Below, one piece after another: positions 1 to 42,479 of a stretch of DNA of 42,479 bases; position 1 is the stretch's first letter, and every line of letters begins with the position of its first letter. Location of the stretch: IMG/VR virus record IMGVR_UViG_3300029156_000004, positions 1-42,479 of that record; one strand, 5' to 3'. The notes below the pieces were generated by a model. The model ran no database searches. It saw nothing but the letters and a program-made list of their open reading frames with translations, and had not been told where the DNA came from. The position numbers were made by a program, and so were the translations under genes. This stretch comes from a virus. Taxonomy: Duplodnaviria > Caudoviricetes.

Positions 1-17
1 GTTTCCCAGTCACGATC
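1..17 (+). other. Random-amplification (SISPA-type) primer tag, technical sequence
   Basis: GTTTCCCAGTCACGATC is the known primer A/B tag; its reverse complement is at 42463-42479. Confidence 0.9.
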
Positions 18-1751: not shown

Positions 1752-2435
1752 ATGATGCAATTATTAATAGATCCCGCAGCCCGACCAACCGTCAGACATC
1801 CGGCTAAATACACGGATGCGTTGCTGCCCACAATGGCAAGAATGTTATCCGGCAGTTGCCGGATACTCGATCCGTTCGGGGGGACTGGCAAGGTCTTCTT
1901 GCTGAAAAAATGGCTACACTTGGCCCAAATTGAAGCTATCGAAATCGAGCCAGAATGGGCGGCGATGCATCCAAAGACCATGCTCGGAAATGCGCTAGCA
2001 TTGCCGTGGCACAATAATTATTTCGATGCGATTGTAACCAGCCCGACCTACGCAAATCGCATGGCCGACTCGCATGTAGCCAGAGATGCCAGCCGCCGGA
2101 ATACCTACACGCACGCCATCGGGCACAAGCTGCATCCCGAAAACAGCGGACATATGCAATGGGGAACTGAATACAAAGAGTTCCATATAGCGGCATGGAA
2201 AGAAGCGCGGCGTGTTCTGTGTGACAATGGTGTATTCATTCTTAATATCAAGGACCACATACGGGACAGCCAGAGAATTGAAGTAACTGATTTTCACATC
2301 AACACCTTGCTGAATTTAGGATTTCGTTTTGTTGTTGAGGTAAAAATAGACTGCCCCGGTAATGGCTACGGACAGAATGGGAACGTGCGAATTCCATACG
2401 AATCCGTAATAAAATTTGAAAAGAGCAGCCTGTGA
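1752..2435 (+). CDS. DNA amino-methyltransferase (N4C/N6A type)
   Basis: HPAKY, motif I LDPFGGTG, variant motif IV TSPTY. Confidence 0.8.
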   Translation: MMQLLIDPAARPTVRHPAKYTDALLPTMARMLSGSCRILDPFGGTGKVFLLKKWLHLAQIEAIEIEPEWAAMHPKTMLGNALALPWHNNYFDAIVTSPTYANRMADSHVARDASRRNTYTHAIGHKLHPENSGHMQWGTEYKEFHIAAWKEARRVLCDNGVFILNIKDHIRDSQRIEVTDFHINTLLNLGFRFVVEVKIDCPGNGYGQNGNVRIPYESVIKFEKSSL

Positions 2436-3091
2436 AATTATTAGATTTATTCTGTTGCCAAGGCGGCGCTGCGTCAGGCTACGAGATGGCTGGCTTCACA
2501 GAGATTGTCGGTGTCGATATTGAGCCACAGCCACGGTATCCGTACACATTCGTGCAAGGCGACGCTCTGGAATACGTGGCGGCGCACGGCCATGAATTCG
2601 ACCTGATACATGCCTCACCACCATGTCAGGCGTACAGCACCACAAAATCACTACATAGCAACGTACACCCTGACCTAGTGGAGCCAACACGCGTGGCGCT
2701 GATAACGACCGGCAGACCATACGTGATTGAAAATGTAGTCGGCGCGCCGCTGCTCAACTACATTAAGTTGACTGGCCTAATGTTCGGATTGAAAGTTTTT
2801 CGAGAGCGATGGTTCGAGACCAGCGTCATGTTGTTAGCCCCGCCAAAGCCGAAACGCAAAAAGTGGATGACCACCAACTCACAGCACGGGAGAGGCATAT
2901 CGTCATTCGCCAATGGCGCTACACACATCGCTGTGACGGGGCATAATTTCTGCGTCGAAGACGCCAAAACAGCGATGAAGATCGACTGGATGAATCAGCA
3001 CGGGTTATCCCAAGCCATACCGCCTGCATACACGAAATACATTGGCGAGAATATGATTATGGCGTGTGAGCTAAGATATATAGGTGAATAA
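2432..3091 (+). CDS. DNA (cytosine-5) methyltransferase, short phage type
   Basis: LDLFCCQGG, catalytic ASPPCQ, IENV, RERWFE, C-terminal QAIPPAY. Confidence 0.9.
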   Translation: MKLLDLFCCQGGAASGYEMAGFTEIVGVDIEPQPRYPYTFVQGDALEYVAAHGHEFDLIHASPPCQAYSTTKSLHSNVHPDLVEPTRVALITTGRPYVIENVVGAPLLNYIKLTGLMFGLKVFRERWFETSVMLLAPPKPKRKKWMTTNSQHGRGISSFANGATHIAVTGHNFCVEDAKTAMKIDWMNQHGLSQAIPPAYTKYIGENMIMACELRYIGE

Positions 3092-3093
3092 TA

Positions 3094-3636
3094 ATGAAAT
3101 CATCAGTTAGTAAAACAGAAATTCTATCCGCCATGCGCGGTATGTACGAGAAGGGCATCCTCCCGAATCGGCGCAATTGGTCGAAGAAGCGGCCGCGAAA
3201 TCTTCCGAGCGACCGCATTATTGCGGTCATTTTCGGCGGCATTGATTGGGCGGAAATTGTAGCGCAGGCCGTCAATGTCGAAATTAAATGTAGATCGTCT
3301 TGGGCGCTCAATACAATCGCGGCACGCCGGAATTTAGTACTGCTGGTGATAGGGCGCATCACCGCGGAAATAAAAGCGCGCGTCACGGTCGAGGATTGGG
3401 ACGCCTACCGTCCAGAATACATCCCAAAGGCGCGCGTGGTGACTGGTCTATTCAATGAATCGTGGGACCAATTTAGCGAGCGGATATGGGAAGAGTTCGT
3501 TTTTGCCGACGACCATTTACCAGATAAGCGCGAAGTGTGGCCCGACTCATTGCGAGTCGGAAAAGAGACAGAGAAGCTAATTTGGCACACGCAGCGCTAT
3601 TGTAGAGTGCGTGTTGTTGCGCAATTAGTGATTTAG
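3094..3636 (+). CDS. Hypothetical protein
   Basis: 180-aa ORF tightly packed in the operon; no recognised motif. Confidence 0.7.
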   Translation: MKSSVSKTEILSAMRGMYEKGILPNRRNWSKKRPRNLPSDRIIAVIFGGIDWAEIVAQAVNVEIKCRSSWALNTIAARRNLVLLVIGRITAEIKARVTVEDWDAYRPEYIPKARVVTGLFNESWDQFSERIWEEFVFADDHLPDKREVWPDSLRVGKETEKLIWHTQRYCRVRVVAQLVI

Positions 3637-3647
3637 GGGATTATTCC

Positions 3648-4811
3648 ATGAGTTACAAACTAATCAACGATGATTGCATGAGCGCAATGATCCAGATGCC
3701 TGATAATTCCGTCGATTCTATCATTACCGATCCACCATACGAAATTGGCTTAATGAATAGGAAATGGGATAGCAGCGGCATCGCGTTTAGTGCCGAGATG
3801 TGGGGAGAATGCCTGCGCGTTGCGAAACCAGGGACAATCCTCTTGTCATTTGGCGGTGCAAAAACCTTCCATCGACTATTTTGCGCCATTGAAGATGCGG
3901 GGTGGGTATTGCAAAATTCAATGTTCTGGGCCTATGGTGAGGGTATGCCAAAAGGCATAGGCAATATCGGCAAGGCAAATGATATGCCAGACTTTGACGG
4001 ATTCTCAACAGGTATTAAACCGTGCGTGGAGCCAATCTGCGTTGCAATGGCCCCGATAGATGGTACGTTTGCTCAGAACGCCGAAAGGTGGAGTGTGGCT
4101 GGGTATAATGTAGATGCGTGTAGAATCCCGCGTCACTCTGCAAATCTATCGCGTCTGAACAGCGACGGCGATAACGGCTGGGCAAACGCAAGTGGCGGAT
4201 CGAATAACGCTGCGTTGCGCGCGAGTGAGGGGTTGCCACCGCTAGGTGGATGGCCTAGCAATCTAGTAGCGGACGAATCGGCTGCCGCAGCAATAGATAT
4301 GCAGAGCGGCTATGCCGGTAGTGGCGCATCTCGCTATTTTAATGTCTTGCACGATACCGACGAAATTCTGTTTTGCTCCAAGCCAACGCGGGCCGAGAAA
4401 GAGATCGGGCTTGATCACATGTCGGAAGTAGCCATTGGCGATGGGCGAAAAAAAGCGATTGACAACGGCTACCAACGCGGCAAAACGCTGCGCAAGAACC
4501 CTCATGAATCAGTCAAGCCGCTTAAAATAATGCTTCATTTATGCAAGCTAACACGCCCTCCGGCTGGGGGTGTTGTTTTTGACCCGTTCGCTGGTAGCGG
4601 CACAACTGGTGTTGCCGCGGCACTATCTGGCCGCGACTTCATTGGCGTTGACATGCGAGAGACTTGCATAGATGTAGCCCGCGCCCGCATCGCCTACGCT
4701 GAACGCTACCTTCGAAGGCAGGGGCTAGAGGAAAGCACGGTCGCCGCAATGATGGATCATCAAGTAGAAGCTCTCCAGATGAGCATATTCGACCTGGAGA
4801 CAAGCCGATGA
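3648..4811 (+). CDS. DNA methyltransferase, N6_N4 family (beta order)
   Basis: ITDPPY near the N-terminus, HESVKP and DPFAGSGTT near the C-terminus. Confidence 0.92.
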   Translation: MSYKLINDDCMSAMIQMPDNSVDSIITDPPYEIGLMNRKWDSSGIAFSAEMWGECLRVAKPGTILLSFGGAKTFHRLFCAIEDAGWVLQNSMFWAYGEGMPKGIGNIGKANDMPDFDGFSTGIKPCVEPICVAMAPIDGTFAQNAERWSVAGYNVDACRIPRHSANLSRLNSDGDNGWANASGGSNNAALRASEGLPPLGGWPSNLVADESAAAAIDMQSGYAGSGASRYFNVLHDTDEILFCSKPTRAEKEIGLDHMSEVAIGDGRKKAIDNGYQRGKTLRKNPHESVKPLKIMLHLCKLTRPPAGGVVFDPFAGSGTTGVAAALSGRDFIGVDMRETCIDVARARIAYAERYLRRQGLEESTVAAMMDHQVEALQMSIFDLETSR

Positions 4812-5769
4812 GCCAATACAAGCCATTATTCCCTGGTTTGGCGGAAAGTCAAAGGCTTCTCATCTGGTTTGGCCGCGATTTGAAAACATTACAAACTACG
4901 TCGAGCCGTTTTTCGGAAGTGGATCCGTTTTGTTCAAGCGCCCCCATGCGCCAAAAACAGAAACGGTAAATGATCTTGACGGATACGTTTCCAACTTCTG
5001 GCGCGCTGTTCAGTCAGACCCCGAGAGTGTAGCTGATTGGACCGATTGGCCCGTAAACGAACTGGATTTGCACGCTCGTCACCGATGGCTTGTTGACCGT
5101 AAGGCGGGATTTACGGAACAACTCCGCGCCGATCCAGATTTCTATGATTCAAAAGTGGCTGGATGGTGGGTATGGGGTATCTGCCAGTGGATAGGTAGCG
5201 GCTGGTGCGCAGAAGGAAAAGCCAGCCGCAAACGACCGCATCTTGGCAACGCAGGCAAGGGCGTTCATCGACCGAGTGAACAACGACCGCATCTTGGCAA
5301 CGCAGGCACTGGCGTTCATCGACCCGATAATACACGCGCGCTAATCCAGATTTTCGCGCGTCGGCTGCGCAATGTACGCGTCTGCTGTGGCGATTGGGAG
5401 AGAGTGTGTGGACCATCAGCCACGCACAAGCACGGGCTAACCGGCGTGTTTTTGGACCCGCCATACACCACAGGCGCAAACCGTGATATGAATCTATATG
5501 TGGAAGATAGCGGGGACGTTGGCCACGCAGTCACCGAGTGGGCAATCAAACAGGGTGATAATCCAAAAATGAGAATAGCCGTCTGCGGCTACGAGGGAGA
5601 ATATGAGTATCCTGATTCTTGGGAATGCGTGGCCTGGAAAACAACTGGTGGGTACGGCTCTCAGTCAAGCCAACATGATAATGAAAATGCCAAGCGCGAG
5701 CGCATATGGTTCTCGCCCCATTGCCTAAAACCATCAGTAAAACGAAGTCTTTTTGAGAGTGCAATATGA
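4808..5769 (+). CDS. Dam-like (D12 class) DNA adenine methyltransferase with an apparent frameshift near 4830
   Basis: PWFGGKS, YVEPFFGSG, VNDLD, FLDPPY. ATG at 4808 (GGAG RBS, ATGA overlap) is out of frame with PWFGGKS by one base at TTCCC-TGG. Confidence 0.85.
5231..5324 (+). repeat. 51-bp-period tandem duplication encoding RPHLGNAGxGVHRP twice
   Basis: aacgaccgcatcttggcaacgcaggca..ggcgttcatcgacc at 5231 and 5282. Confidence 0.95.
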
Positions 5770-21126: not shown

Positions 21127-22455
21127 CTATGACCGTGTAGCTACTGTGACAAATGGCGATTGGGTAGCGGTGCCATTTTTGGGCGTCATGGCGCTTGACC
21201 ATCCAGGCTGACCATCTAGGCGATATGTCCAGCGGAACGTCATTTGGTCAGTCAAGAATTGCACGTGCATTGACTCGGCCTCTTCCACACCACCTTTGTC
21301 AATCATGATATATTGTGTCAGGTCCGCTAACACAATATCGCCAACCGTGCCAAGCGTGCTAGCTTCTTCCGTTGGCACAACCGGACGCCCCATTAATGTT
21401 GCGAAAGGTGATTGGCTCAGTCCACCAGGGGGCAAGTAGACAGGTACACCGCCCGTACCAATCGGTAGTTCCAGCCCGAACAATTGCGGCTCAATGTCCT
21501 GATTAATGAACCATACCGCATTCGCTCGGCTGCGCGCCCACATTCTCGACCACATATTGAAAATGTTTTGTGGAACGATGGTGGCAGCAGCCTGTCCTGT
21601 TTCCTTTGGGACCGTTACCAGAGAATTGCTATTCAGGATGCCGTCTGGTTGTCCCGCTCCAGTGCCTCGGAAGATGGCCTCTTCTGATCGGACGGTAAGC
21701 TCCTCATTCACAGCCATGCGCGCAACGGATGCAAGCGCGGTTGTGTCGGCTAAAAGCTCGTCCGTCGCATACATCAGCGCGAGCAGCTTGTTCAACTTTA
21801 GTTCCATCTGGCGAAATTTGGGCTTTGTTGCTGTAGCTGCATCGCCCTCGCTCGCCCAATACGCCTGCACGCCGCCCCACCTCGAGCCATTTGCGCGGCT
21901 GGTTTCGTCAACTGCGTTCATCGTCAGTCCGTTGCTGTTCGCCCCGACAGGCAAACGTCGTACACGCGTTAGGATTTCGCCCGTAGCATGTTCCAGAGTG
22001 AACAATTCCTGAACATGCGTAGGCTGGACAAGGTAGCCGCCATCCGCGGGAATACCTTCGGATGCGCCGAGAACGGCCTTTGCGCGCTGCGCTTTCAGGC
22101 GATCATCCATCAGCCCTGGCGTTTGCGCGGCCACCTGCACTGCCTTGAGAAAATGGCCAAGTGTTTTCCACGGCTGTGTAGACTTTTTGTCTGCCTCGTC
22201 CTGCGTTACGGTCATGTGTCCCGCCGCTTTGATTGGCGGCTCCGCTTCGATTTTCGCCTTGAATTCTTTCAGCCCGTCAAGCTCTAGCTTAAGTGCCTTG
22301 AATTCGTCGGACTCGGTGATAGGCGTGCTTGGCTCAGGCGAAAGGTCGTCAAGCGCCTTCACCGCCTTTGCTTTTTTGGTCAGCTTCTCCGCCTCTTTCA
22401 GATCGCCAGCGGCGATAGCTTTCCGAGCGGCAGCTAACAGTTGCTCTAGCGTCAT
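21127..22455 (-). CDS. Major capsid protein, HK97 family
   Basis: N-terminal coiled-coil delta domain, DGGYLV, W..EG, GTGAGQPDGILN, TLMGRPVV, FRWTYRLDG. Confidence 0.96.
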   Translation of the reverse strand: MTLEQLLAAARKAIAAGDLKEAEKLTKKAKAVKALDDLSPEPSTPITESDEFKALKLELDGLKEFKAKIEAEPPIKAAGHMTVTQDEADKKSTQPWKTLGHFLKAVQVAAQTPGLMDDRLKAQRAKAVLGASEGIPADGGYLVQPTHVQELFTLEHATGEILTRVRRLPVGANSNGLTMNAVDETSRANGSRWGGVQAYWASEGDAATATKPKFRQMELKLNKLLALMYATDELLADTTALASVARMAVNEELTVRSEEAIFRGTGAGQPDGILNSNSLVTVPKETGQAAATIVPQNIFNMWSRMWARSRANAVWFINQDIEPQLFGLELPIGTGGVPVYLPPGGLSQSPFATLMGRPVVPTEEASTLGTVGDIVLADLTQYIMIDKGGVEEAESMHVQFLTDQMTFRWTYRLDGQPGWSSAMTPKNGTATQSPFVTVATRS

Positions 22456-23690
22456 AGTGATAACTCCAATAGTTCCACTTCAATAGATAAACGTTTGGCT
22501 ACGTCTGATTTGTTCGCTACGGGGTCCGCAGATGTACGGTCTGCCTCTGGACGATCCGTCTTGGCGTCTTCGCCAGCGTTGCCAATGTATGATTTCAGCG
22601 CGGGTATGCGCTGTGACAATGCCTTAAATGCCGTGAGCGTGTTCTCGCTCATCATGCGCGGTTCCATCGGGGTAACTGTGAGGGTATCGCGCATTAATGG
22701 CCATTCGGTAATTTCGCCATTTTTTGCCGACTTTGCGCCGTTCTGTATCGGCTCCGAGGACGTCCCGATAAGACCCAACTTGATAAGTTCTTCCAAAAAT
22801 TGTACATACTGATTACGCCGATTCAAGACGCGTTCAACGAACAGCCCCTTGTCGTCTATCTTGGCTGTTTTCCAGTCAACGCGGCCCAATAAATCATCTC
22901 GCCCAGGCTCATCTTGTGGTGCTACTCCATGCTCCCAATCTATGGCCACCATATCCAACTCTGTGTATGGACTGTCAAACTTGGTCGCCTTTGTGAAATA
23001 CTCGCCAAAGCTACCATCGGCATTTACACGCGGACTTGCTATGCCCTCTAGGTCACGCCCCCCAAACAATGCCATGTAATTCCCAACACGAAATTCTGTG
23101 TCAGTCACACTGAGTGCCTTGAGCGCGTTCCCCTCGGTAAGTTCTGCCACTATCGTTTCTCCTTGCAATGGCAGCCTTGTCACATTGTCACCATGCGATA
23201 GGTAAATACTGCCAAAACCAATTTCGATCTCTGGGGGCGCAAGCATGGAAGCAGGCATCTCGGCGGGTACATACCCTAGCGTAATATGTGGCGTGAATCC
23301 ATGCTCGCGCGATGCGCTAATGCCACGTCTGCGCAAATGCTCTAAGACCTTATCCTGCATATTGATAATTTGCGGCGAATCTACTTGCGCCCAAACCGCC
23401 TGTTTTCCATCGCTCTCCTTTGAGAAACGCCCCACACCACCGACGCGAGCGCGTACCGAAGTTAACTGGCTAGATAATTCTGCCAACGCACCGAGAATGT
23501 CAGATTCGCTAAACCGCACTTCGTCAACCTTGCCGAAGTAGCCTAATGTGATATGAAATTCATCCGATGGCGTCAGGTCGCTACCTTCCGGCAGGGTTGA
23601 CTGGTATTCGATTAGTTGCGCCCTTGCTCCCTCTGGAACGTAAAGCGCAACCATGATGCTAGTGTGGAAACCATTCGTGCTATCGGCCAT
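22452..23690 (-). CDS. Fusion: N-terminal 2H phosphoesterase (LigT/Acb1-like) + C-terminal prohead protease
   Basis: Two HITLGY motifs about 88 aa apart; then GRDLEG...GEYFT...DWEH...GTSS...TLTVTPMEP directly upstream of the capsid gene. Confidence 0.85.
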   Translation of the reverse strand: MADSTNGFHTSIMVALYVPEGARAQLIEYQSTLPEGSDLTPSDEFHITLGYFGKVDEVRFSESDILGALAELSSQLTSVRARVGGVGRFSKESDGKQAVWAQVDSPQIINMQDKVLEHLRRRGISASREHGFTPHITLGYVPAEMPASMLAPPEIEIGFGSIYLSHGDNVTRLPLQGETIVAELTEGNALKALSVTDTEFRVGNYMALFGGRDLEGIASPRVNADGSFGEYFTKATKFDSPYTELDMVAIDWEHGVAPQDEPGRDDLLGRVDWKTAKIDDKGLFVERVLNRRNQYVQFLEELIKLGLIGTSSEPIQNGAKSAKNGEITEWPLMRDTLTVTPMEPRMMSENTLTAFKALSQRIPALKSYIGNAGEDAKTDRPEADRTSADPVANKSDVAKRLSIEVELLELSL

Positions 23691-35172: not shown

Positions 35173-35491
35173 TGCGTATTCGCCACCTTGCGTGCAAATG
35201 GCCGATTAACCCAACCCAGGCGGAGAAAATCAAAAGTGCAATCGCCAAGCGCGACATGGCTATTGCGTCGGTAATGCTGATCCATGCATGAAAATTCCTG
35301 GTGGCCAAAATCGCATTATTCAAACAAATTAGCCAGCAGGCTAGAGCTACCATTAAATGCCGCGGGCTTCTGGACTCGCATACATAGTAGCATATGAAAA
35401 TGACGGCCCACACCGCAAATATGAATGTCCCGGCGATGTACATCACCAATGCTGCATTGTCAGTGAGTAGAAGCCATTCCGGTATTCTCAT
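35165..35491 (-). CDS. Three-TM membrane protein (holin candidate)
   Basis: Three hydrophobic segments, basic C-terminus, upstream of the lysin. Confidence 0.55.
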   Translation of the reverse strand: MRIPEWLLLTDNAALVMYIAGTFIFAVWAVIFICYYVCESRSPRHLMVALACWLICLNNAILATRNFHAWISITDAIAMSRLAIALLIFSAWVGLIGHLHARWRIRNE

Positions 35492-36069
35492 ACTGTCCCC
35501 GCCGCAATCATTCCCACGATAAACGCGATTCCCAGGCCCAGCCCAAAAGCGAAAAAATAATATTTTGCATCTTCCAAACCGCCGTTTGGAGATAGGTACA
35601 GCCAGTTTTCGTTGGCGTTTAACGCGTAGTATGCTTTTCTGATACTGCTCTGCCTACGCAACTCCCTGGCAAATTGCATCCCAACCGAGGCAGCTACGCG
35701 ATCTTCCAGTATGTTTATTCCGGCCAGTATATGAATGTTTGCAGCGCGCAAGCGATTGGGCAGGATCTTCGTATCACACGATGACAACATCAGTAAGCGC
35801 GCGCCGGACGCCGATATAATTCGTCTTAATTCATCGTACCCGATGGTGGATGTAGATAGGTGGATTTTGTCACCCGTTGCGCCAGAGATAATCCAAATTA
35901 CATTATAATTGTTTTCATTCACGGCGCGCGACAAATCTAATAGATCAACGTCGCCTTCTATGACTGTGGCGTTATGATACCGTCTGATCTCGCTGATCTC
36001 GTGAAATTTATTTGGCAACTCCTCATGCTCGCGCAGGGTTGGTGCAATTACTAAAATACGTCGCTTCAC
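35488..36069 (-). CDS. CHAT/caspase-fold domain protein with C-terminal TM helix
   Basis: ILVIAP..LP...EISEI...YNVIWIISG...LLMLSSC...VGMQFAREL...SIRKAY; hydrophobic C-terminus. Confidence 0.65.
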   Translation of the reverse strand: MKRRILVIAPTLREHEELPNKFHEISEIRRYHNATVIEGDVDLLDLSRAVNENNYNVIWIISGATGDKIHLSTSTIGYDELRRIISASGARLLMLSSCDTKILPNRLRAANIHILAGINILEDRVAASVGMQFARELRRQSSIRKAYYALNANENWLYLSPNGGLEDAKYYFFAFGLGLGIAFIVGMIAAGTV

Positions 36070-36529: not shown

Positions 36530-36639
36530 AAAAGCCCCTACCCTCTGGCGTCCAACCGGAGGTAGGGGCAAAGTCTAGGCGTCCAACCATAGAAAAGCTC
36601 TATCTCTCCGGTTGGACGCCGTATATCTCAATTATATCA
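36530..36639 (-). promoter_or_regulatory. Putative late promoter plus attenuator leader
   Basis: Extended -10 TGaTATAAT (36639-36631); 15-nt 5' segment complementary to the loop/stem of terminator 36534-36569 and to a second copy at 36578-36588. Confidence 0.7.
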
Positions 36640-36649
36640 TATGTCTGAC

Positions 36650-36686
36650 AAAAAAGATAGCCGTCTGATATAATCAGGCGGCTATC
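36650..36686 (-). terminator. Intrinsic terminator after the pentapeptide gene
   Basis: gatagccgcctgat / atcagacggctatc stem followed by TTTTTT. Confidence 0.8.
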
Positions 36687-37313: not shown

Positions 37314-37405
37314 AAAACCCTGGTTACCAGGGTTTTAGTCAGAGGATTTGCACTTTTTGGCACTTTTTGCCGATTTTCGTAAAACCCTGGTAACCAGGGT
37401 TTTAC
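37314..37405. promoter_or_regulatory. Pair of 23-bp palindromes with phased spacer repeats; parC-like centromere candidate
   Basis: AAAACCCTGGT-w-ACCAGGGTTTT at 37314-37336 and 37381-37403; GCACTTTTTG twice at 37350-37369. Confidence 0.65.
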
Positions 37406-37415
37406 AGGGGGGACC

Positions 37416-37646
37416 CTACATGATTGCATCCCCCCATCCGTCGCCAAAATCGTCATCATCGACCTCATCATCGGGTGCTGTGTCAATACGCCCCAATAGG
37501 GCTTGTATCACTAGCTCCCCTTTGTGAGTCGCATCATCCAGCAACTTTTTGACCCTGGCATGATCTGGGTTGCCATCCCTAAGTGTTAGCTTGACGACGT
37601 AACGATGTACTGACTTGTCTGGCTTAGGCCCACGTCGCTTCGCCAT
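37416..37646 (-). CDS. Putative ParR-like DNA-binding adaptor
   Basis: 76 aa directly after parM; basic N-terminus, strand-helix-helix pattern, acidic tail. Confidence 0.6.
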   Translation of the reverse strand: MAKRRGPKPDKSVHRYVVKLTLRDGNPDHARVKKLLDDATHKGELVIQALLGRIDTAPDDEVDDDDFGDGWGDAIM

Positions 37647-37648
37647 GA

Positions 37649-38611
37649 TTAATCCTTGTTGATGAATCGGAACAATCCGTGAGCGATTGACATAACGGGA
37701 TCAGTAGGGACATGCACCATGCCGTCGAAATGTTTTGTGAAATAACCGTTGAGTAGAAGAGATCCGCCGCCCACTACGATGATGGCATCGAAACGCTGCC
37801 AAGTATCGCCCCACGTATCCTCGATAACGCCAGTCACTTCGCCCTCCCATTCGCTCATGGCTGGGCTTACGTCGAGAAATCCGCGGCGTAGTCGGTCGTC
37901 AAGTTCGCCCAGTGTGAACAGTTTCTTTGGGTCTGCGTTGCGGAGTAGGCGTCGCACCCCCGCTTTTGCACCTGATGTTCTGTGATCTACGATTGCCTTG
38001 TTGGATACGCAGAGGACTTCGAGCGTGTTGAACCCTACGCTAATCACACCTACCTCGCCCTTTATTGAATCTCTGCGACTGGCAATCGGCTTGCCAGTTG
38101 GGGACAATGCGTAATCAAATAGCGCAGCAAGTGGCTGCGATGTTACTTTTACATCATCAACATCTACGCCGTAATCCTTACCATCTGACTGCCACGAGTG
38201 AACGCCCTTTAACCATTTCTTTACGTCTGCAATGCTTTGCTTGTGATTCTCGCTGGTCATCATCTCTACAGGCAGTGCGGCAAAGACTGTCACCGATCCA
38301 TTGTATTTTCCATGTTCATTGATACGATTCGTCAGTGCGCCGTAAACCAGCGCTTTGATTTCCTGGCTACTTGTTAGGCGGTCGAAACCCATGTTTTCGA
38401 TGGCCCGACCTGAATTGTGGGCATTACGACCAACGTAGTAACTTCGCCCATCAAACTGAACATCTAGCGCAGACTTAGATTTGTTTGCACCAGTCGCAGC
38501 GACAAAGCGTTTTCCGCCACCAGTTGATACGAATGATGGTAGATGCGTGCCACCTGCACTGTCCCACAACTTGATTGCTCCCATTCCTGGGTCCATTCCG
38601 ATAAATTCCAT
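37649..38611 (-). CDS. parM: ParM/StbA family actin-like ATPase
   Basis: GMDPGMGAIK (phosphate 1), ALPV, SQP, ISVGFNT (phosphate 2), VVGGGS (adenosine), PVMSIAHGL. Confidence 0.9.
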   Translation of the reverse strand: MEFIGMDPGMGAIKLWDSAGGTHLPSFVSTGGGKRFVAATGANKSKSALDVQFDGRSYYVGRNAHNSGRAIENMGFDRLTSSQEIKALVYGALTNRINEHGKYNGSVTVFAALPVEMMTSENHKQSIADVKKWLKGVHSWQSDGKDYGVDVDDVKVTSQPLAALFDYALSPTGKPIASRRDSIKGEVGVISVGFNTLEVLCVSNKAIVDHRTSGAKAGVRRLLRNADPKKLFTLGELDDRLRRGFLDVSPAMSEWEGEVTGVIEDTWGDTWQRFDAIIVVGGGSLLLNGYFTKHFDGMVHVPTDPVMSIAHGLFRFINKD

Positions 38612-38707: not shown

Positions 38708-38998
38708 TCAATCATTCACCATGCCATCTGCTCTTTTGACAGAATCGTCTTTGAAGCACTTCCAGCACAGCCGCTCTTCTTCCTGATCGCTTCCAGCGTC
38801 GTCAACCTGTAGGTGATGAGGCTTTCCACAATTGCGACACTGGGTCGGTTTGCGTAACTTCGATTGCCAATCCTCATGACTTATCACGACGGCAACGGGT
38901 CTTCCATACCGACTGATGACGGTGTGGCTGCCACGGAGACAATCTTCTAAAATTTTGCCAACTTGCTTTTTTACTGCTGAACTCTCAATCATACTCAT
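38708..38998 (-). CDS. Phd/YefM-family antitoxin-like protein with C-terminal zinc finger
   Basis: [18 protein letters not shown]; CRNC...CWKC; AAGGAG RBS. Confidence 0.8.
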
Positions 38999-39211: not shown

Positions 39212-39385
39212 CTAATCATGCAGCAGCCCTTTCCCCGTTGCGACACCGCTGGCTATCCCAGAGATGATCGCCGCCGCTATCAGTATGCCGCAAATGGTAT
39301 CGGTTAGCGACGTGTCTGGCAGCGAGAAGATCGCTGCTACGGCCAGTAAAAACCAAGTTGTTGCTTCGCGTTTAATAAAGTTCAT
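39212..39385 (-). CDS. Small two-TM membrane protein (57 aa)
   Basis: MNFIKREATTWFLLAVAAIFSL...ICGILIAAAIISGIA; GAGG RBS. Confidence 0.6.
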   Translation of the reverse strand: MNFIKREATTWFLLAVAAIFSLPDTSLTDTICGILIAAAIISGIASGVATGKGLLHD

Positions 39386-39397
39386 ATTGTTTTTCCT

Positions 39398-39826
39398 CTA
39401 GAGAATAAATCCATCCCATACTGCGTACATAAATGCCAACACCGCCACTAGAGCGCCAACCGCCAAAAACAATCTTTCTGTTTTGAATGTTGGCATCTCG
39501 GCCCGCGGCAGACCTTTGATGTATCTGTCAATCGCCCAGAGATCAAATCCGCTTAAGTAATACCATTCGTTTCGTCCCCTTTTCTGAATTTTCCGGTGCT
39601 TGAACATGCGATGTAGTTTTGCCTCCATCGCATGGTGATCGTTCACGACGTACTCGGCGTAGATGCTAACAGGGTAGGATGACCCCGTACGCGCATCTGA
39701 TAGTCGAGTCTCCGCCGTGTGCCTCGTCTTTCCTATCTTGAAATGGCCGGTGAAGATGCCGCCAGTCGCTAGCCGAACTATCAATGGCACATGCTTTTTG
39801 AGGATGTATACGGTTCCTGCCGCCAT
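39398..39826 (-). CDS. GIY-YIG nuclease (T5orf172/Mug113-like) with C-terminal TM anchor
   Basis: VYIL...FKIGKT...RL...TG...EAKLH..F...NEWY; hydrophobic tail; TAATG coupling. Confidence 0.85.
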   Translation of the reverse strand: MAAGTVYILKKHVPLIVRLATGGIFTGHFKIGKTRHTAETRLSDARTGSSYPVSIYAEYVVNDHHAMEAKLHRMFKHRKIQKRGRNEWYYLSGFDLWAIDRYIKGLPRAEMPTFKTERLFLAVGALVAVLAFMYAVWDGFIL

Positions 39827-40161
39827 TAGTTCACCACCTCGGATTCTGGATTGATAATCAATACCGTGCCGTTGCGGATGTCTTCGTACAATTTCGTTTG
39901 CTTTCGAGTGCGCCACCAATAGGCAACGACGGCGCAGAGGGCGGCAGCGACGAACACTACAGCGTACCATGTCATTGTTGCCAACTGCGCAACAAGCGCC
40001 CATATTAGTGGTGCGATCCACACAATCAGTTTCGCGATTCCGATAGCGATGATTGGTGTGAGCCACATGATGAGTTTTGCCGCGCCGATAATCACCAGCA
40101 GGATAAGGCCAAAGAGGAGCCAACTGGGCGATGGTAGTTGAAGTTTTTGTTTGAGTGTCAT
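39826..40161 (-). CDS. Multi-pass membrane protein
   Basis: About 70 hydrophobic residues with an internal repeat AKLIxW..P.I. Confidence 0.75.
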   Translation of the reverse strand: MTLKQKLQLPSPSWLLFGLILLVIIGAAKLIMWLTPIIAIGIAKLIVWIAPLIWALVAQLATMTWYAVVFVAAALCAVVAYWWRTRKQTKLYEDIRNGTVLIINPESEVVN

Positions 40162-40186
40162 AATTTTTATCCTAATGTGCTGGTGA

Positions 40187-41791
40187 TTATCGGTTACTGA
40201 TTTTTCCGCGCGCTGGGGAGTATGGTAATGGTAGCCCCATTTCTAGGCGAACACCATTTATCATCGACGCGAACTTGCGACCTTTGCGGTCGTTTGTTTT
40301 GTTCGGATGATTAAATACCTCTAATATAATGCGGCCATTACTGAATCCATCGCGCAGACTAATTTCGACTTGAATTCTCTGTGACGGGGTTAAATCCTGC
40401 GCGGCATCGATGTAAATCATATGCTCTGGCTGTACATCCGGACCTACAGCCGGACCTACAGCCATTGTGGGTGGCTGTAGGTCTTCAATTTGGGGTACAA
40501 CCGCCGGACCGGATGTAGGACCGGCTGTAGGTCCGGATGTAGGTCCGGATGTAGGACCGGCTGTAGGCATAACTGCCTCTATATGACCCTGATCACACAG
40601 AGGAATCTGCAAACGCGTGCGCTTAATGTCCGTATTGTTCATCAGGCAAACGCCCGTAGGTAAATCATCAATGGCGCGGAAGTCACCAAAACTCTCAATC
40701 ACCTGCGCTCCATCCTTGGGCATTCGATGAATAATGCTTGTCTGCGCAGCGCGGCGGAGTTTGAATCCAAGATCGCCCATCTCTGACTTTGACCAAAATT
40801 GCGATATGCAGAATGCAAATATATTGAACTTTCGAAAACTTTTCAGAATGATAGGTAGCGATTTTTCTGCATATTGACGTTCCTCATCTGTCGCCATCGC
40901 GGCAAACTCGGCCACCTCATCAATGACAAAAAGCAATGGATCAAAGTCGTTCGGCCGCGAGCCTTCAACTCGAGCGCGGCGCTCTCCTTCCAGCATGACA
41001 CAACGCAGCATTTCCATACCGTCTTCAAACTCAATTGCTGGAGGCATGAAAAAACTACCGGACAACGGGGCTAGGCTTGACAAAATTCCCTCCTCGCTGT
41101 TGCCGTGCGGGTCAAAGATTGCCAATCGCCAACCAAGCATTGCGTATTGGGCCAATAGGAATCTGGTTGTGTTGCTTTTACCGCTGCCAGATAATCCACC
41201 ACAAACAATCGATTTGACTTTGTGCGGCTTGGCATATAGCGGTTGTCCGTCTACGTACCCTAGCATGACGTTTATGCTCCCCAAAGCGCCATCCCTGACC
41301 AGTTCCCCGAAGTTGGGGACAGTATGATTCCCCAATGCTGCTATCTCGCCATCCATCTGTGCGCCATCGCTTTTGTTGCTGTAATGAAGGCTCCCTGGCA
41401 CGTTCGGGTGTGTGCGGCCCGCATCGATATTCATCTCTAGCAGGTTGACGGCGTTACCGGCCATTTCGCCAGATGCAATTAGGTTGCGCGCAACTGGCAG
41501 AACATTGCCTTTCGGATTGATGATTTGCAGATCTAGCAGCGCACGCTGATTATCAATTGCCATGCGCTCCAAATAAAGGCGGTTCTCCTCGTTGCTTAAT
41601 CGCGCGTTTCCTACAGCGATGAACGATTTGTGCAGTGCGTAGATGATTGCGGCCAACCCGAACAGCAGACAAGCAACGAGCGCGATCTCACCAATCACGT
41701 CCATGATGTACGGAATTGAATCCGCAATCATTGCTGTCGTTGCGAATATTGTAATGGCCACTATGACCACGATTGATGCTTGCTTACCCAT
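40187..41791 (-). CDS. FtsK/SpoIIIE/TraB-like membrane-anchored P-loop ATPase
   Basis: Two N-terminal TMs, GGLSGSGKS, FDPH, LFVIDE, RKF...ISQ, Pro-rich linker, small C-terminal helical domain. Confidence 0.85.
   Translation of the reverse strand: MGKQASIVVIVAITIFATTAMIADSIPYIMDVIGEIALVACLLFGLAAIIYALHKSFIAVGNARLSNEENRLYLERMAIDNQRALLDLQIINPKGNVLPVARNLIASGEMAGNAVNLLEMNIDAGRTHPNVPGSLHYSNKSDGAQMDGEIAALGNHTVPNFGELVRDGALGSINVMLGYVDGQPLYAKPHKVKSIVCGGLSGSGKSNTTRFLLAQYAMLGWRLAIFDPHGNSEEGILSSLAPLSGSFFMPPAIEFEDGMEMLRCVMLEGERRARVEGSRPNDFDPLLFVIDEVAEFAAMATDEERQYAEKSLPIILKSFRKFNIFAFCISQFWSKSEMGDLGFKLRRAAQTSIIHRMPKDGAQVIESFGDFRAIDDLPTGVCLMNNTDIKRTRLQIPLCDQGHIEAVMPTAGPTSGPTSGPTAGPTSGPAVVPQIEDLQPPTMAVGPAVGPDVQPEHMIYIDAAQDLTPSQRIQVEISLRDGFSNGRIILEVFNHPNKTNDRKGRKFASMINGVRLEMGLPLPYSPARGKISNR
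40428..40567. repeat. Cluster of direct and inverted 12-bp-period repeats (core TACAKCC) inside the ATPase gene
   Basis: GGMTGTA at 40428, 40473, 40511, 40523, 40535, 40547, 40559; TACAKCC at 40433, 40445, 40457. Confidence 0.92.
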
Positions 41792-41859
41792 GCTGACTCC
41801 TGCTATCCAGTAAAAATACTTTTAAAACCATGCGATTTGTTAGAGATATGTAGAGTTTG

Positions 41860-42126
41860 TTACCGTTTGTTAGACTTCTGACTGCTGATTAATAACCTTC
41901 TAATGATGACAAATATCAAAATTACTAGTGTTGCCACTAGCCATCCGACTACAATTATCTGCACGCCGATCACGAAAATGTGTAGCAGCAGATCCCCTAT
42001 CTGGTATCCAGTCATATAGACGGCAGCGCACGCCAGCGCGATTGCAGAAACTATGAACTCCCCTAACCCACCTACTCGCCCGGCTTTTTCTACCGTCTGG
42101 ATTATGACGTTGATCTTGTCGCTCAA
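41860..42126 (-). CDS. Two-TM membrane protein
   Basis: GGAGG RBS, TTG start, two hydrophobic helices, basic tail. Confidence 0.7.
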   Translation of the reverse strand: MSDKINVIIQTVEKAGRVGGLGEFIVSAIALACAAVYMTGYQIGDLLLHIFVIGVQIIVVGWLVATLVILIFVIIRRLLISSQKSNKR

Positions 42127-42151: not shown

Positions 42152-42283
42152 AAAAAACGCTCAACGGTTTGCGTTGAGCGTGTGAGCGCATGATGTGTGA
42201 TATGCTTTCCATCATACCGCCCGTTGTCGCTTCAACGGTCTGGTTTAGACTACCGCAGGTGTGGATGTCACCTGCGGTAGTCG
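42152..42283 (-). promoter_or_regulatory. Structured leader/attenuator upstream of the membrane-ATPase operon
   Basis: 14-bp hairpin 42248-42282, small hairpin 42221-42238, terminator 42157-42181 plus T tract. Confidence 0.6.
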
Positions 42284-42285
42284 AT

Positions 42286-42462
42286 TTATTCGCCAATCAA
42301 TTCCTTGTATTTATCGTAATTCATTAACACTGCAACGTGCCTACCGTGGCGAGTCACAATAATAACCTTCTCCTCATGCTCCAGCACGCTATCAACGTGC
42401 TTTCTCAGAAAGTCTCTGAGATTCTGAATTACTACCTTTACCTCGCTGATTTTGCCCACCTT
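42286..42462 (-). CDS. Phd/YefM-family antitoxin-like protein (5' end possibly cut by the window edge)
   Basis: NLRDFLRKHVDSV...IIVTRHGRHVAVLMNYDKYKEL; not in the ORF track. Confidence 0.8.
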   Translation of the reverse strand, partial: KVGKISEVKVVIQNLRDFLRKHVDSVLEHEEKVIIVTRHGRHVAVLMNYDKYKELIGE

Positions 42463-42479
42463 GATCGTGACTGGGAAAC
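42463..42479 (-). other. Random-amplification primer tag, technical sequence
   Basis: Reverse complement of bases 1-17. Confidence 0.9.

What the first reader, a model, noticed from the sequence alone, without database searches (positions are those of the whole stretch)
39212..42126. Candidate TraB/Spd-like dsDNA transfer system carried by a tailed phage
Seen: a five-gene operon in which every product has TM helices: 2-TM protein, TM-anchored FtsK-like ATPase with a small C-terminal domain, multi-TM protein, TM-anchored GIY-YIG nuclease, 2-TM peptide. It sits next to ParM/ParR, with no relaxase or T4SS genes. Known: Streptomyces plasmids move as dsDNA using one FtsK-like TraB plus small hydrophobic Spd proteins, one of which (SpdA-type) has been linked to nuclease-like activity. 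Inference: a phage-plasmid with a second, non-lytic route of spread, either cell to cell or across septa of a filamentous host. Alternative: a membrane ATPase-nuclease exclusion or defence module. Best candidate for an undescribed system in this window.
Basis: partly seen in the sequence, partly recalled or inferred. Interest (0 to 1): 0.85.

Follow-up and report, generated by a model that had tools for sequence, protein, structure and literature searches.

The report
Phage DNA pump with built-in repeats
A tailed phage, likely of filamentous Chloroflexota bacteria, carries a membrane-anchored FtsK-type motor whose own gene holds two opposed arrays of short DNA repeats; the motor likely grips these repeats and would pump the phage DNA into neighbouring cells without lysis, which is untested.

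Summary
The five membrane-protein genes are real. The centre is a 534-aa FtsK-fold ATPase with two N-terminal helices, a motor and a small helical C-domain. It belongs to a large unnamed family (909 clusters) that branches apart from Streptomyces TraB. The family sits in Chloroflexota phages and in small chromosomal integrase-plus-replicase elements with no capsid or secretion-system hits, the layout of actinomycete ICEs.

New here: the linker-coding DNA holds two opposed arrays of 12-bp repeats. All 4 other complete phage-contig genes have such arrays, against 3 of 788 controls. A hold-out of 18 chromosomal genes failed the exact test (0 of 18) but showed a degenerate motif in synonymous codons (25 of 57 vs 9 of 107; post hoc).

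Best reading: a TraB-like, not TraB, dsDNA pump with its loading site inside its own gene (0.5). The five-gene operon is not conserved as a unit. Absence of an integrase cannot be judged, because the contig is partial. The scan noted similar ParM-FtsK-membrane operons in four other phages; no note on the repeats was found.

The parts
41860..42126 (-). 88-aa protein, two predicted TM helices, no family
   Evidence: no homologue in loci searched
40187..41791 (-). 534-aa membrane-anchored FtsK-fold ATPase: TM 5-23 and 32-50, long helix to about 88, motor about 155-410 (Walker A 199-206, Walker B D291-E292, conserved R320-K321, Q331), linker about 408-452, helical C-domain 455-529
   Evidence: (pLDDT 86.6)
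40428..40567 (.). Opposed repeat arrays inside the linker-coding DNA: five 12-bp-period copies at 40511-40567, one more at 40473-40481, and two exact plus one degenerate inverted copy at 40428-40463. The 9-mer occurs nowhere else in the window. Candidate loading site (clt-like).
40085..40193 (-). Perfect 16-bp inverted repeat. The predicted RNA stem pairs the ATPase stop region and most of the next gene's ribosome-binding site with codons of the 111-aa gene; likely translational coupling.
   Evidence: z -4.06, 0 of 200 shuffles; 0 of 200 shuffles
39826..40161 (-). 111-aa protein, three predicted TM helices, no family
39398..39826 (-). 142-aa T5orf172/MUG113 (GIY-YIG-like, clan recalled) domain with a C-terminal TM helix
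39212..39385 (-). 57-aa hydrophobic peptide, one clear TM helix
38708..38998 (-). Phd/YefM-like regulator upstream of parM
37649..38611 (-). ParM-like actin; relatives mostly in Chloroflexota
37416..37646 (-). 76-aa ParR-like adaptor (by position only; no Pfam hit)
37314..37404 (.). Two 24-bp palindromes 67 bp apart just downstream of the ParR-like gene; candidate centromere-like sites, found only here in the window
42157..42181 (-). Terminator-like hairpin separating the operon from an upstream Phd-like gene
42463..42479 (.). Library-primer artefact (same 17 nt inverted at 1-17); not a phage terminus
   Evidence: identity as a random-amplification primer is recalled

Best explanation
The operon encodes a membrane-anchored FtsK-fold ATPase whose own gene holds two opposed arrays of DNA repeats, and it likely works like Streptomyces TraB: its C-terminal domain would bind these repeats and the motor would pump double-stranded phage DNA into an adjacent cell of a likely filamentous Chloroflexota host. 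Shown by sequence and computation: genes, fold, catalytic motifs, repeat arrays, the family's presence on phages and on capsid-less integrative elements, and separation from TraB in a tree. Inferred: a hexameric ring; C-domain binding to the repeats; an extrachromosomal state held by ParM/ParR; small TM proteins as channel or septal partners (the 111-aa protein is likely translationally coupled); the T5orf172-TM protein as a membrane-tethered DNA-binding or nicking helper; movement across septa or between filaments.
For: Fold: best structural matches are the FtsK motor on dsDNA (E 1e-11) and TcpA; 130 of 142 family members have N-terminal TM helices. Elements: L220, L222, L166 (recombinase + ATPase + P4-type primase) and L165 (integrase + ATPase + rolling-circle Rep) gave no capsid or T4SS hit among the ORFs scanned. 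This is the Int/Rep/Tra layout of actinomycete ICEs (PMC3429521, passages). Repeats: 6 of 9 discovery genes, including the window and all 4 other complete phage-contig genes, versus 3 of 788 control gene tails, with a different 8-mer per lineage. In 18 hold-out genes CTTCC is enriched in the linker (p 1.5e-5) and polar (p 0.015), and [ATP]-Ser pairs use the motif-forming codons in 25 of 57 cases versus 9 of 107 elsewhere in the same genes. Known clt sites are short direct and inverted repeats next to or overlapping tra (PMC3583192, passages). Distribution: 14 of 169, 15 of 301 and 3 of 301 genomes in three Chloroflexota classes, 0 of 301 in a small-genome class. Small TM neighbours: 18 of 30 versus 198 of 636. 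Downstream TM+HTH-like partners resemble SpdB2 by architecture.
Against: The pre-set exact-repeat test failed in the hold-out: 0 of 18 versus 3 of 114 controls; with one mismatch 3 of 18 versus 50 of 350. The motif tests were devised after seeing those outputs, CTTC ranked 5th of 120 4-mers for polarity, tandem copies are not independent, and the window's own repeat core differs from CTTC. A protein-only test was no better than a motor-domain control at most thresholds. The family is not sister to TraB, and no winged helix was shown. The four small genes are not conserved. Integrase-plus-primase elements could be phage satellites carrying the gene as cargo; L164 has a VirD4-type coupling protein and L230 a Replic_Relax protein. 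L166 and L167 carry a shortened ATPase without linker or C-domain. Smaller genomes carry fewer mobile elements, which confounds the class tally. No expression, binding or transfer data.
Confidence: 0.5

Rival explanations
1. Private segregation pump: the ATPase clears the plasmid-like prophage from the closing division septum, as chromosomal FtsK does, using the repeats as a loading site. Inheritance is vertical only, with no new cells invaded.
For: FtsK fold; next to ParM/ParR; FtsK-like ATPases lie within 3 kb of this ParM family in 8 of 48 viral and 18 of 80 genome loci. FtsK/SpoIIIE genes of Bacillus plasmid prophages are read this way (PMC11526630, passages).
Against: The family also sits on integrase-bearing elements that the chromosome segregates while integrated; ParM already offers segregation; several family phage loci show no ParM nearby.
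Confidence: 0.25
2. Membrane ATPase-nuclease exclusion or defence module that detects or destroys incoming DNA.
For: T5orf172-TM downstream of the ATPase; GIY-YIG and T5orf172 genes follow the ATPase in L166 and L167; P0208 fuses T5orf172 to this same C-domain, 64.5% over 62 aa; weak PADLOC hits (PDC-S57 6e-8, mad8 5e-5); satellites often carry defence cargo (established knowledge).
Against: A nuclease neighbour was seen in only those two other loci; PADLOC hits on the ATPase are mostly short matches around the P-loop; it does not explain DNA-level repeats in the gene; HerA-type structures rank below FtsK.
Confidence: 0.1
3. TcpA-like coupling protein that hands relaxase-bound single-stranded DNA to a conjugation channel encoded elsewhere.
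For: TcpA ranks 7th in the fold search; L165 has a rolling-circle Rep, L230 a Replic_Relax protein, L164 a TraG/VirD4-type protein; part of this phage genome is unseen.
Against: No relaxase or T4SS hit in 55 window ORFs; a separate C-domain plus in-gene repeats fits direct dsDNA loading better.
Confidence: 0.08
4. Captured extrusion module of a filamentous or budding virus (pI-like ATPase plus small hydrophobic coat proteins), as proposed for Dehalococcoides IME1.
For: ATPase flanked by short hydrophobic ORFs; precedent in the same phylum (bioRxiv 10.64898/2026.09.15.751708, passages); A32-like ATPases appear lower in the viral fold search.
Against: No Zot hit; N-terminal anchor is FtsK/TraB-like (pI topology recalled); the phage has its own terminase and capsid; the small ORFs are not conserved.
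Confidence: 0.04

Closest known systems
Streptomyces TraB + clt + Spd (pSVH1, pWTY27, pIJ101, pJV1, pSG5)
   Same: N-terminal TM helices, FtsK motor, small C-domain; short element-specific direct and inverted repeats at the gene's 3' end; hydrophobic neighbours in a coupled operon; no relaxase or T4SS seen.
   Different: Separate branch in the tree; C-domain predicted all-helical; repeats lie inside the linker-coding sequence in two opposed arrays; no Spd or GntR/TraR homologue seen; on a tailed phage in Chloroflexota.
Actinomycete integrative conjugative elements (Int + Rep + FtsK-like Tra)
   Same: Chromosomal family members L165, L166, L220 and L222 have the same three-part layout with no capsid or T4SS hit.
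   Different: Reported as nearly confined to Actinomycetales (PMC3429521, passages); here Chloroflexota, mostly with P4-type primases; transfer untested.
FtsK/SpoIIIE and ParM-like genes of Bacillus plasmid prophages
   Same: Tailed phage with actin partition genes or an FtsK-like ATPase (PMC11526630, passages).
   Different: There FtsK sits with a replication-relaxation gene; no in-gene repeat arrays or TM cassette in the passages read.
AlpC/AlpA of Corynebacterium prophage CGP3
   Same: Prophage actin plus adaptor (PMC4446434, abstract and outline only).
   Different: Integrated prophage using actin for replication, which shows that ParM alone does not prove a plasmid lifestyle; no DNA pump in the abstract.
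SpdB2 homologues on actinophages
   Same: Published suggestion that phage-borne membrane proteins assist spreading of phage DNA (PMC4447253, passage).
   Different: That passage names only the Spd-type protein; here the phage has the motor and a candidate loading site.

Membership tests
FtsK/HerA superfamily, FtsK-type motor | RecA-like motor with Walker A/B, conserved Arg and Gln, FtsK fold | tested here: met
   FtsK E 4e-16; 6t8b E 1e-11
Chromosomal FtsK | Groups with chromosomal FtsK and carries a gamma winged helix | tested here: not met
   chromosomal FtsKs form their own branch, support 99; no FtsK_gamma hit
Streptomyces TraB | N-terminal membrane anchor + FtsK motor + C-terminal small domain | tested here: met
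Streptomyces TraB | Motor groups with TraB/Tra proteins | tested here: not met
   quick ML tree of 69 rows: the 24 family rows are separated from 5 Streptomyces rows and 8 chromosomal FtsKs by a branch with support 96; TraB branches are long and the careful search did not finish
Streptomyces TraB | [quoted passage not shown] | tested here: inconclusive
   model shows four helices and no wing; profile comparisons gave 3% or less, but the gamma-versus-TraB control also failed; Atlas gave no named match
Streptomyces TraB | cis-acting locus of short element-specific repeats | tested here: inconclusive
   arrays present in the window and phage relatives; exact test failed in 18 chromosomal genes; degenerate motif supported post hoc; binding untested
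Streptomyces TraB | Hexameric pore and dsDNA transfer between cells | not testable with these tools
Spd proteins | Homology to SpdA/SpdB2-type proteins | tested here: inconclusive
   no Pfam, PHROG or NCBIfam family for the three small TM proteins above cut-off; no direct alignment to Spd proteins was run
Phage-plasmid | Virion genes plus partition genes | tested here: met
Phage-plasmid | No integrase; plasmid replicon | tested here: inconclusive
   none in the window, but the contig is partial; family phages L185 and L042 have integrases
Known defence systems (HerA-based, MADS, PDC-S57) | Full-length match and partner genes | tested here: not met
   only short or weak hits for the window's five proteins; no partner gene among them

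The most novel reading that the evidence does not exclude
Filamentous Chloroflexota have their own TraB-like dsDNA transfer system, a lineage separate from Streptomyces TraB. The pump's loading site is written into the linker of its own gene, directly beside the domain that reads it, so pump and site move and diverge as one unit. Tailed phages use it to spread cell to cell along or between filaments without making virions.
Probability: 0.3. Interest if true: 0.88.

Novelty: new variant of a known kind. Interest (0 to 1): 0.64.

Why it matters
Single-protein dsDNA conjugation is described as nearly confined to actinomycetes. A separate lineage on Chloroflexota phages and integrative elements would extend it to another filamentous phylum and give tailed phages a non-lytic route of spread. 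The in-gene repeats make this directly testable: synonymous recoding removes the candidate site without changing the protein.

Tried and rejected
Close relatives with DNA context: none found in viral contigs, genome contigs or GenBank phages; the one metagenome locus, L001, is an unrelated coupling protein. So the neighbourhoods of the six 51-67% homologues are unseen; P0003 and the 94% ParM homologue P0011 share a longest-contig length of 12134, which is only circumstantial. The first fold was poor (pLDDT 43) and its structural search returned only coiled coils. The terminal inverted repeat as a linear-plasmid telomere was rejected: the same letters dangle from other contigs and the genome continues. 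The exact opposed-repeat test failed in the hold-out; the protein-only inverted-repeat test was weak. C-domain profile comparisons were uninformative. No RNA holder listed. Promoter scan was at chance level, 7 versus 7.1. Literature: searches listed no paper whose title or abstract opening describes this family or in-gene arrays. The library lacks most subscription papers, the original TraB structure paper was not read, and no supplements were read.
Full report
Observation. The five minus-strand ORFs are present and tightly spaced. The nuclease-like gene starts at 39826, overlapping the previous stop, and gives 142 aa. Each product has at least one hydrophobic helix; the 57-aa peptide has one clear helix. 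The window is a siphovirus with helicase and methylases on the left arm, and ParM plus a small adaptor-like ORF downstream of the operon. None of 55 ORFs hit an integrase, relaxase or T4SS family. The contig is partial, however. Both ends carry the same 17 nt in inverted orientation, which I recall as a random-amplification primer. The same letters dangle from other contigs, one public contig runs 3.2 kb beyond the left end, and two run past 42462 into pentapeptide-repeat sequence.

Host. The host is inferred. ParM relatives at about 37-48% identity lie mostly in records titled Anaerolineae or Chloroflexota (80 loci kept of 96). A profile of the ATPase family hit 14 of 169 and 15 of 301 genomes in two Chloroflexota classes, 3 of 301 in the class of Longilinea, and 0 of 301 in a class of small genomes, all at E 1e-28. 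One hit genome has BchZ, so its class is probably Chloroflexia. The small-genome class is presumed Dehalococcoidia from size alone. Filamentous growth of the positive classes is recalled, and genome size confounds the tally.

The ATPase. Six homologues at 51-67% led to 909 cluster representatives. Of 142 full-length ones, 130 have N-terminal TM helices and 140 keep Walker A. The model from 142 sequences (pLDDT 86.6) shows a long N-terminal helix, a RecA-like motor, a disordered linker and a four-helix C-domain without strands. The best structural matches are the FtsK motor on dsDNA, then TcpA, EssC/EccC and HerA. Atlas look-alikes are FtsK-type clusters, many viral or Chloroflexota. The best plasmid hits are Streptomyces FtsK/SpoIIIE proteins at 26-30%, one beside spdD and one in an integrase-Rep element. 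A quick tree of 69 motor domains separates the family from Streptomyces Tra proteins and chromosomal FtsK with support 96; the careful search did not finish and the TraB branches are long. The C-domain matched no named family, but my positive control also failed. A 148-aa protein, P0208, fuses a T5orf172 domain to this C-domain (64.5% over 62 aa), which suggests a portable DNA-binding module (inference).

Contexts. The family occurs in viral contigs (L182-L186, L042, L039, L050). L185 and L042 have tyrosine integrases; L042, L039 and L050 have ParM. It also occurs in small chromosomal islands: L220, L222 and L166 have recombinase, ATPase and P4-type primase, and L165 has integrase, ATPase and rolling-circle Rep. 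No capsid or T4SS family was hit among the neighbours scanned (150, 73, 54 and 38 proteins, overlapping sets chosen by size and distance). Exceptions are a VirD4-type protein in L164 and Replic_Relax in L230. A small same-strand TM gene lies within two ORFs in 18 of 30 family loci versus 198 of 636 background genes. Several downstream partners are multi-TM proteins with an HTH-like end (L184 has HTH_DeoR; L166 and L167 by inspection). GIY-YIG or T5orf172 genes follow the ATPase in L166 and L167 only. The window's three small TM proteins had no homologue in the loci searched. Separately, 8 of 48 viral and 18 of 80 genomic ParM loci have an FtsK-like gene within 3 kb, mostly a more distant clade lacking TM helices; many of these loci are truncated.

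Repeats inside the gene. The linker is coded by five 12-bp-period repeats, a sixth copy, and an inverted array. The 9-mer occurs nowhere else in the window. Using an exact 8-mer with at least two copies in each orientation in the last 420 nt, 6 of 9 family genes scored, including the window and all four other complete phage-contig genes, versus 3 of 788 control tails and 0 of 36 distant FtsK genes (truncated L182 left out). The hold-out failed: 0 of 18 chromosomal genes versus 3 of 114 controls, and 3 of 18 versus 50 of 350 with one mismatch. A protein-only test was weak. After seeing these outputs I tested the shared core: CTTCC is enriched in hold-out linkers against 849 controls (p 1.5e-5) and against the same genes' upstream part (p 0.001), with forward copies tending to come first (p 0.015). 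Synonymous choice points to DNA-level constraint: Ala/Thr/Pro-Ser pairs form the motif in 25 of 57 linker cases versus 9 of 107 elsewhere (p 2e-7); the matching test for Glu codons within the linker was not significant. These tests are post hoc, copies are not independent, and the window's core differs from CTTC. My reading: crisp arrays in free phages, a looser motif in many chromosomal copies, none in some.

Other signals. A perfect 16-bp inverted repeat pairs the ATPase stop region with codons of the next gene, and the predicted stem covers most of that gene's ribosome-binding site (z -4.06; 0 of 200 shuffles). This likely couples translation of the 111-aa protein to the ATPase. Two 24-bp palindromes behind the ParR-like gene are candidate centromere sites.

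Mechanism. TraB binds short repeats through its C-terminal domain, forms a hexamer and moves dsDNA. Known clt sites have direct and inverted repeats, and in pWTY27 the site overlaps the tra gene by 16 bp (PMC3583192, passages). Spd proteins add spreading through septa, and SpdB2 homologues on actinophages were already suggested to spread phage DNA (PMC4447253, abstract, introduction, first results and passages). By analogy, this ATPase likely loads at its in-gene arrays and pumps the circular prophage into a neighbouring cell, helped by replaceable small membrane proteins (0.5). The main rival is segregation at the closing septum (0.25), then defence (0.1), coupling protein (0.08) and viral extrusion (0.04). 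Nothing here shows expression, binding or transfer.

Comparison and novelty. It works like TraB/clt but is not filed as TraB, since the tree test was not met. AICE-type transfer is described as nearly confined to Actinomycetales (PMC3429521, passages). FtsK and ParM genes on plasmid prophages are known (PMC11526630, passages; PMC4446434, abstract). Ten searches listed nothing on this family or on in-gene arrays; subscription papers and supplements were not seen. This scan noted four similar ParM-FtsK-membrane operons in Chloroflexota and cyanobacterial phages and no note matching the repeats. Verdict: new variant of a known kind, interest 0.64.

Noticed in passing
window 1-17 and 42463-42479: Inverted 17-nt ends are a library primer; the real genome continues on both sides, on the right into a second pentapeptide-repeat sequence.
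   Followed up: yes
window 22452-23690: 412-aa protein directly before the major capsid gene has an N-terminal 2H phosphoesterase (LigT/Acb1-like) domain; possible anti-CBASS enzyme fused to a head protein.
   Followed up: no
window 35488-36069: 193-aa protein with a C-terminal TM helix, related to a CHAT-domain protein in phage locus L184; lies upstream of the M23 peptidase gene, role unclear.
   Followed up: partly
window 36547-36620: Three copies of an 11-bp motif, one inverted, plus an 11-of-12 sigma70-like site at 36645-36674 on the + strand; candidate operators at the start of the late operon.
   Followed up: no
window 38708-38998 and 42286-42459: Two Phd/YefM-like genes with no evident toxin partner flank the operon; likely regulators.
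   Followed up: no
window 1752-5769: Cluster of three or four DNA methyltransferase genes.
   Followed up: no
L014, L019, L030, L063, L073, L074, L081 (gene just upstream of ParM): A more distant FtsK clade without TM helices has direct repeats at the very 3' end of its gene (4-8 copies of an 8-mer); 11 of 36 distant genes versus 15 of 788 controls reach four copies.
   Followed up: partly
L166:8663-11016 and L167:8185-10695: The ATPase appears split into a 2-TM protein and a soluble motor without C-domain, followed by GIY-YIG (and T5orf172 in L167) and a TM+HTH-like protein, near serine recombinases.
   Followed up: partly
protein P0208: T5orf172 domain fused to the same C-terminal helical domain as this ATPase.
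   Followed up: partly
L004 (Virus Rctr41k): A GenBank phage with a 40% identical ParM and two tyrosine recombinases but no match to the ATPase family; ParM of this type coexists with integrases.
   Followed up: partly
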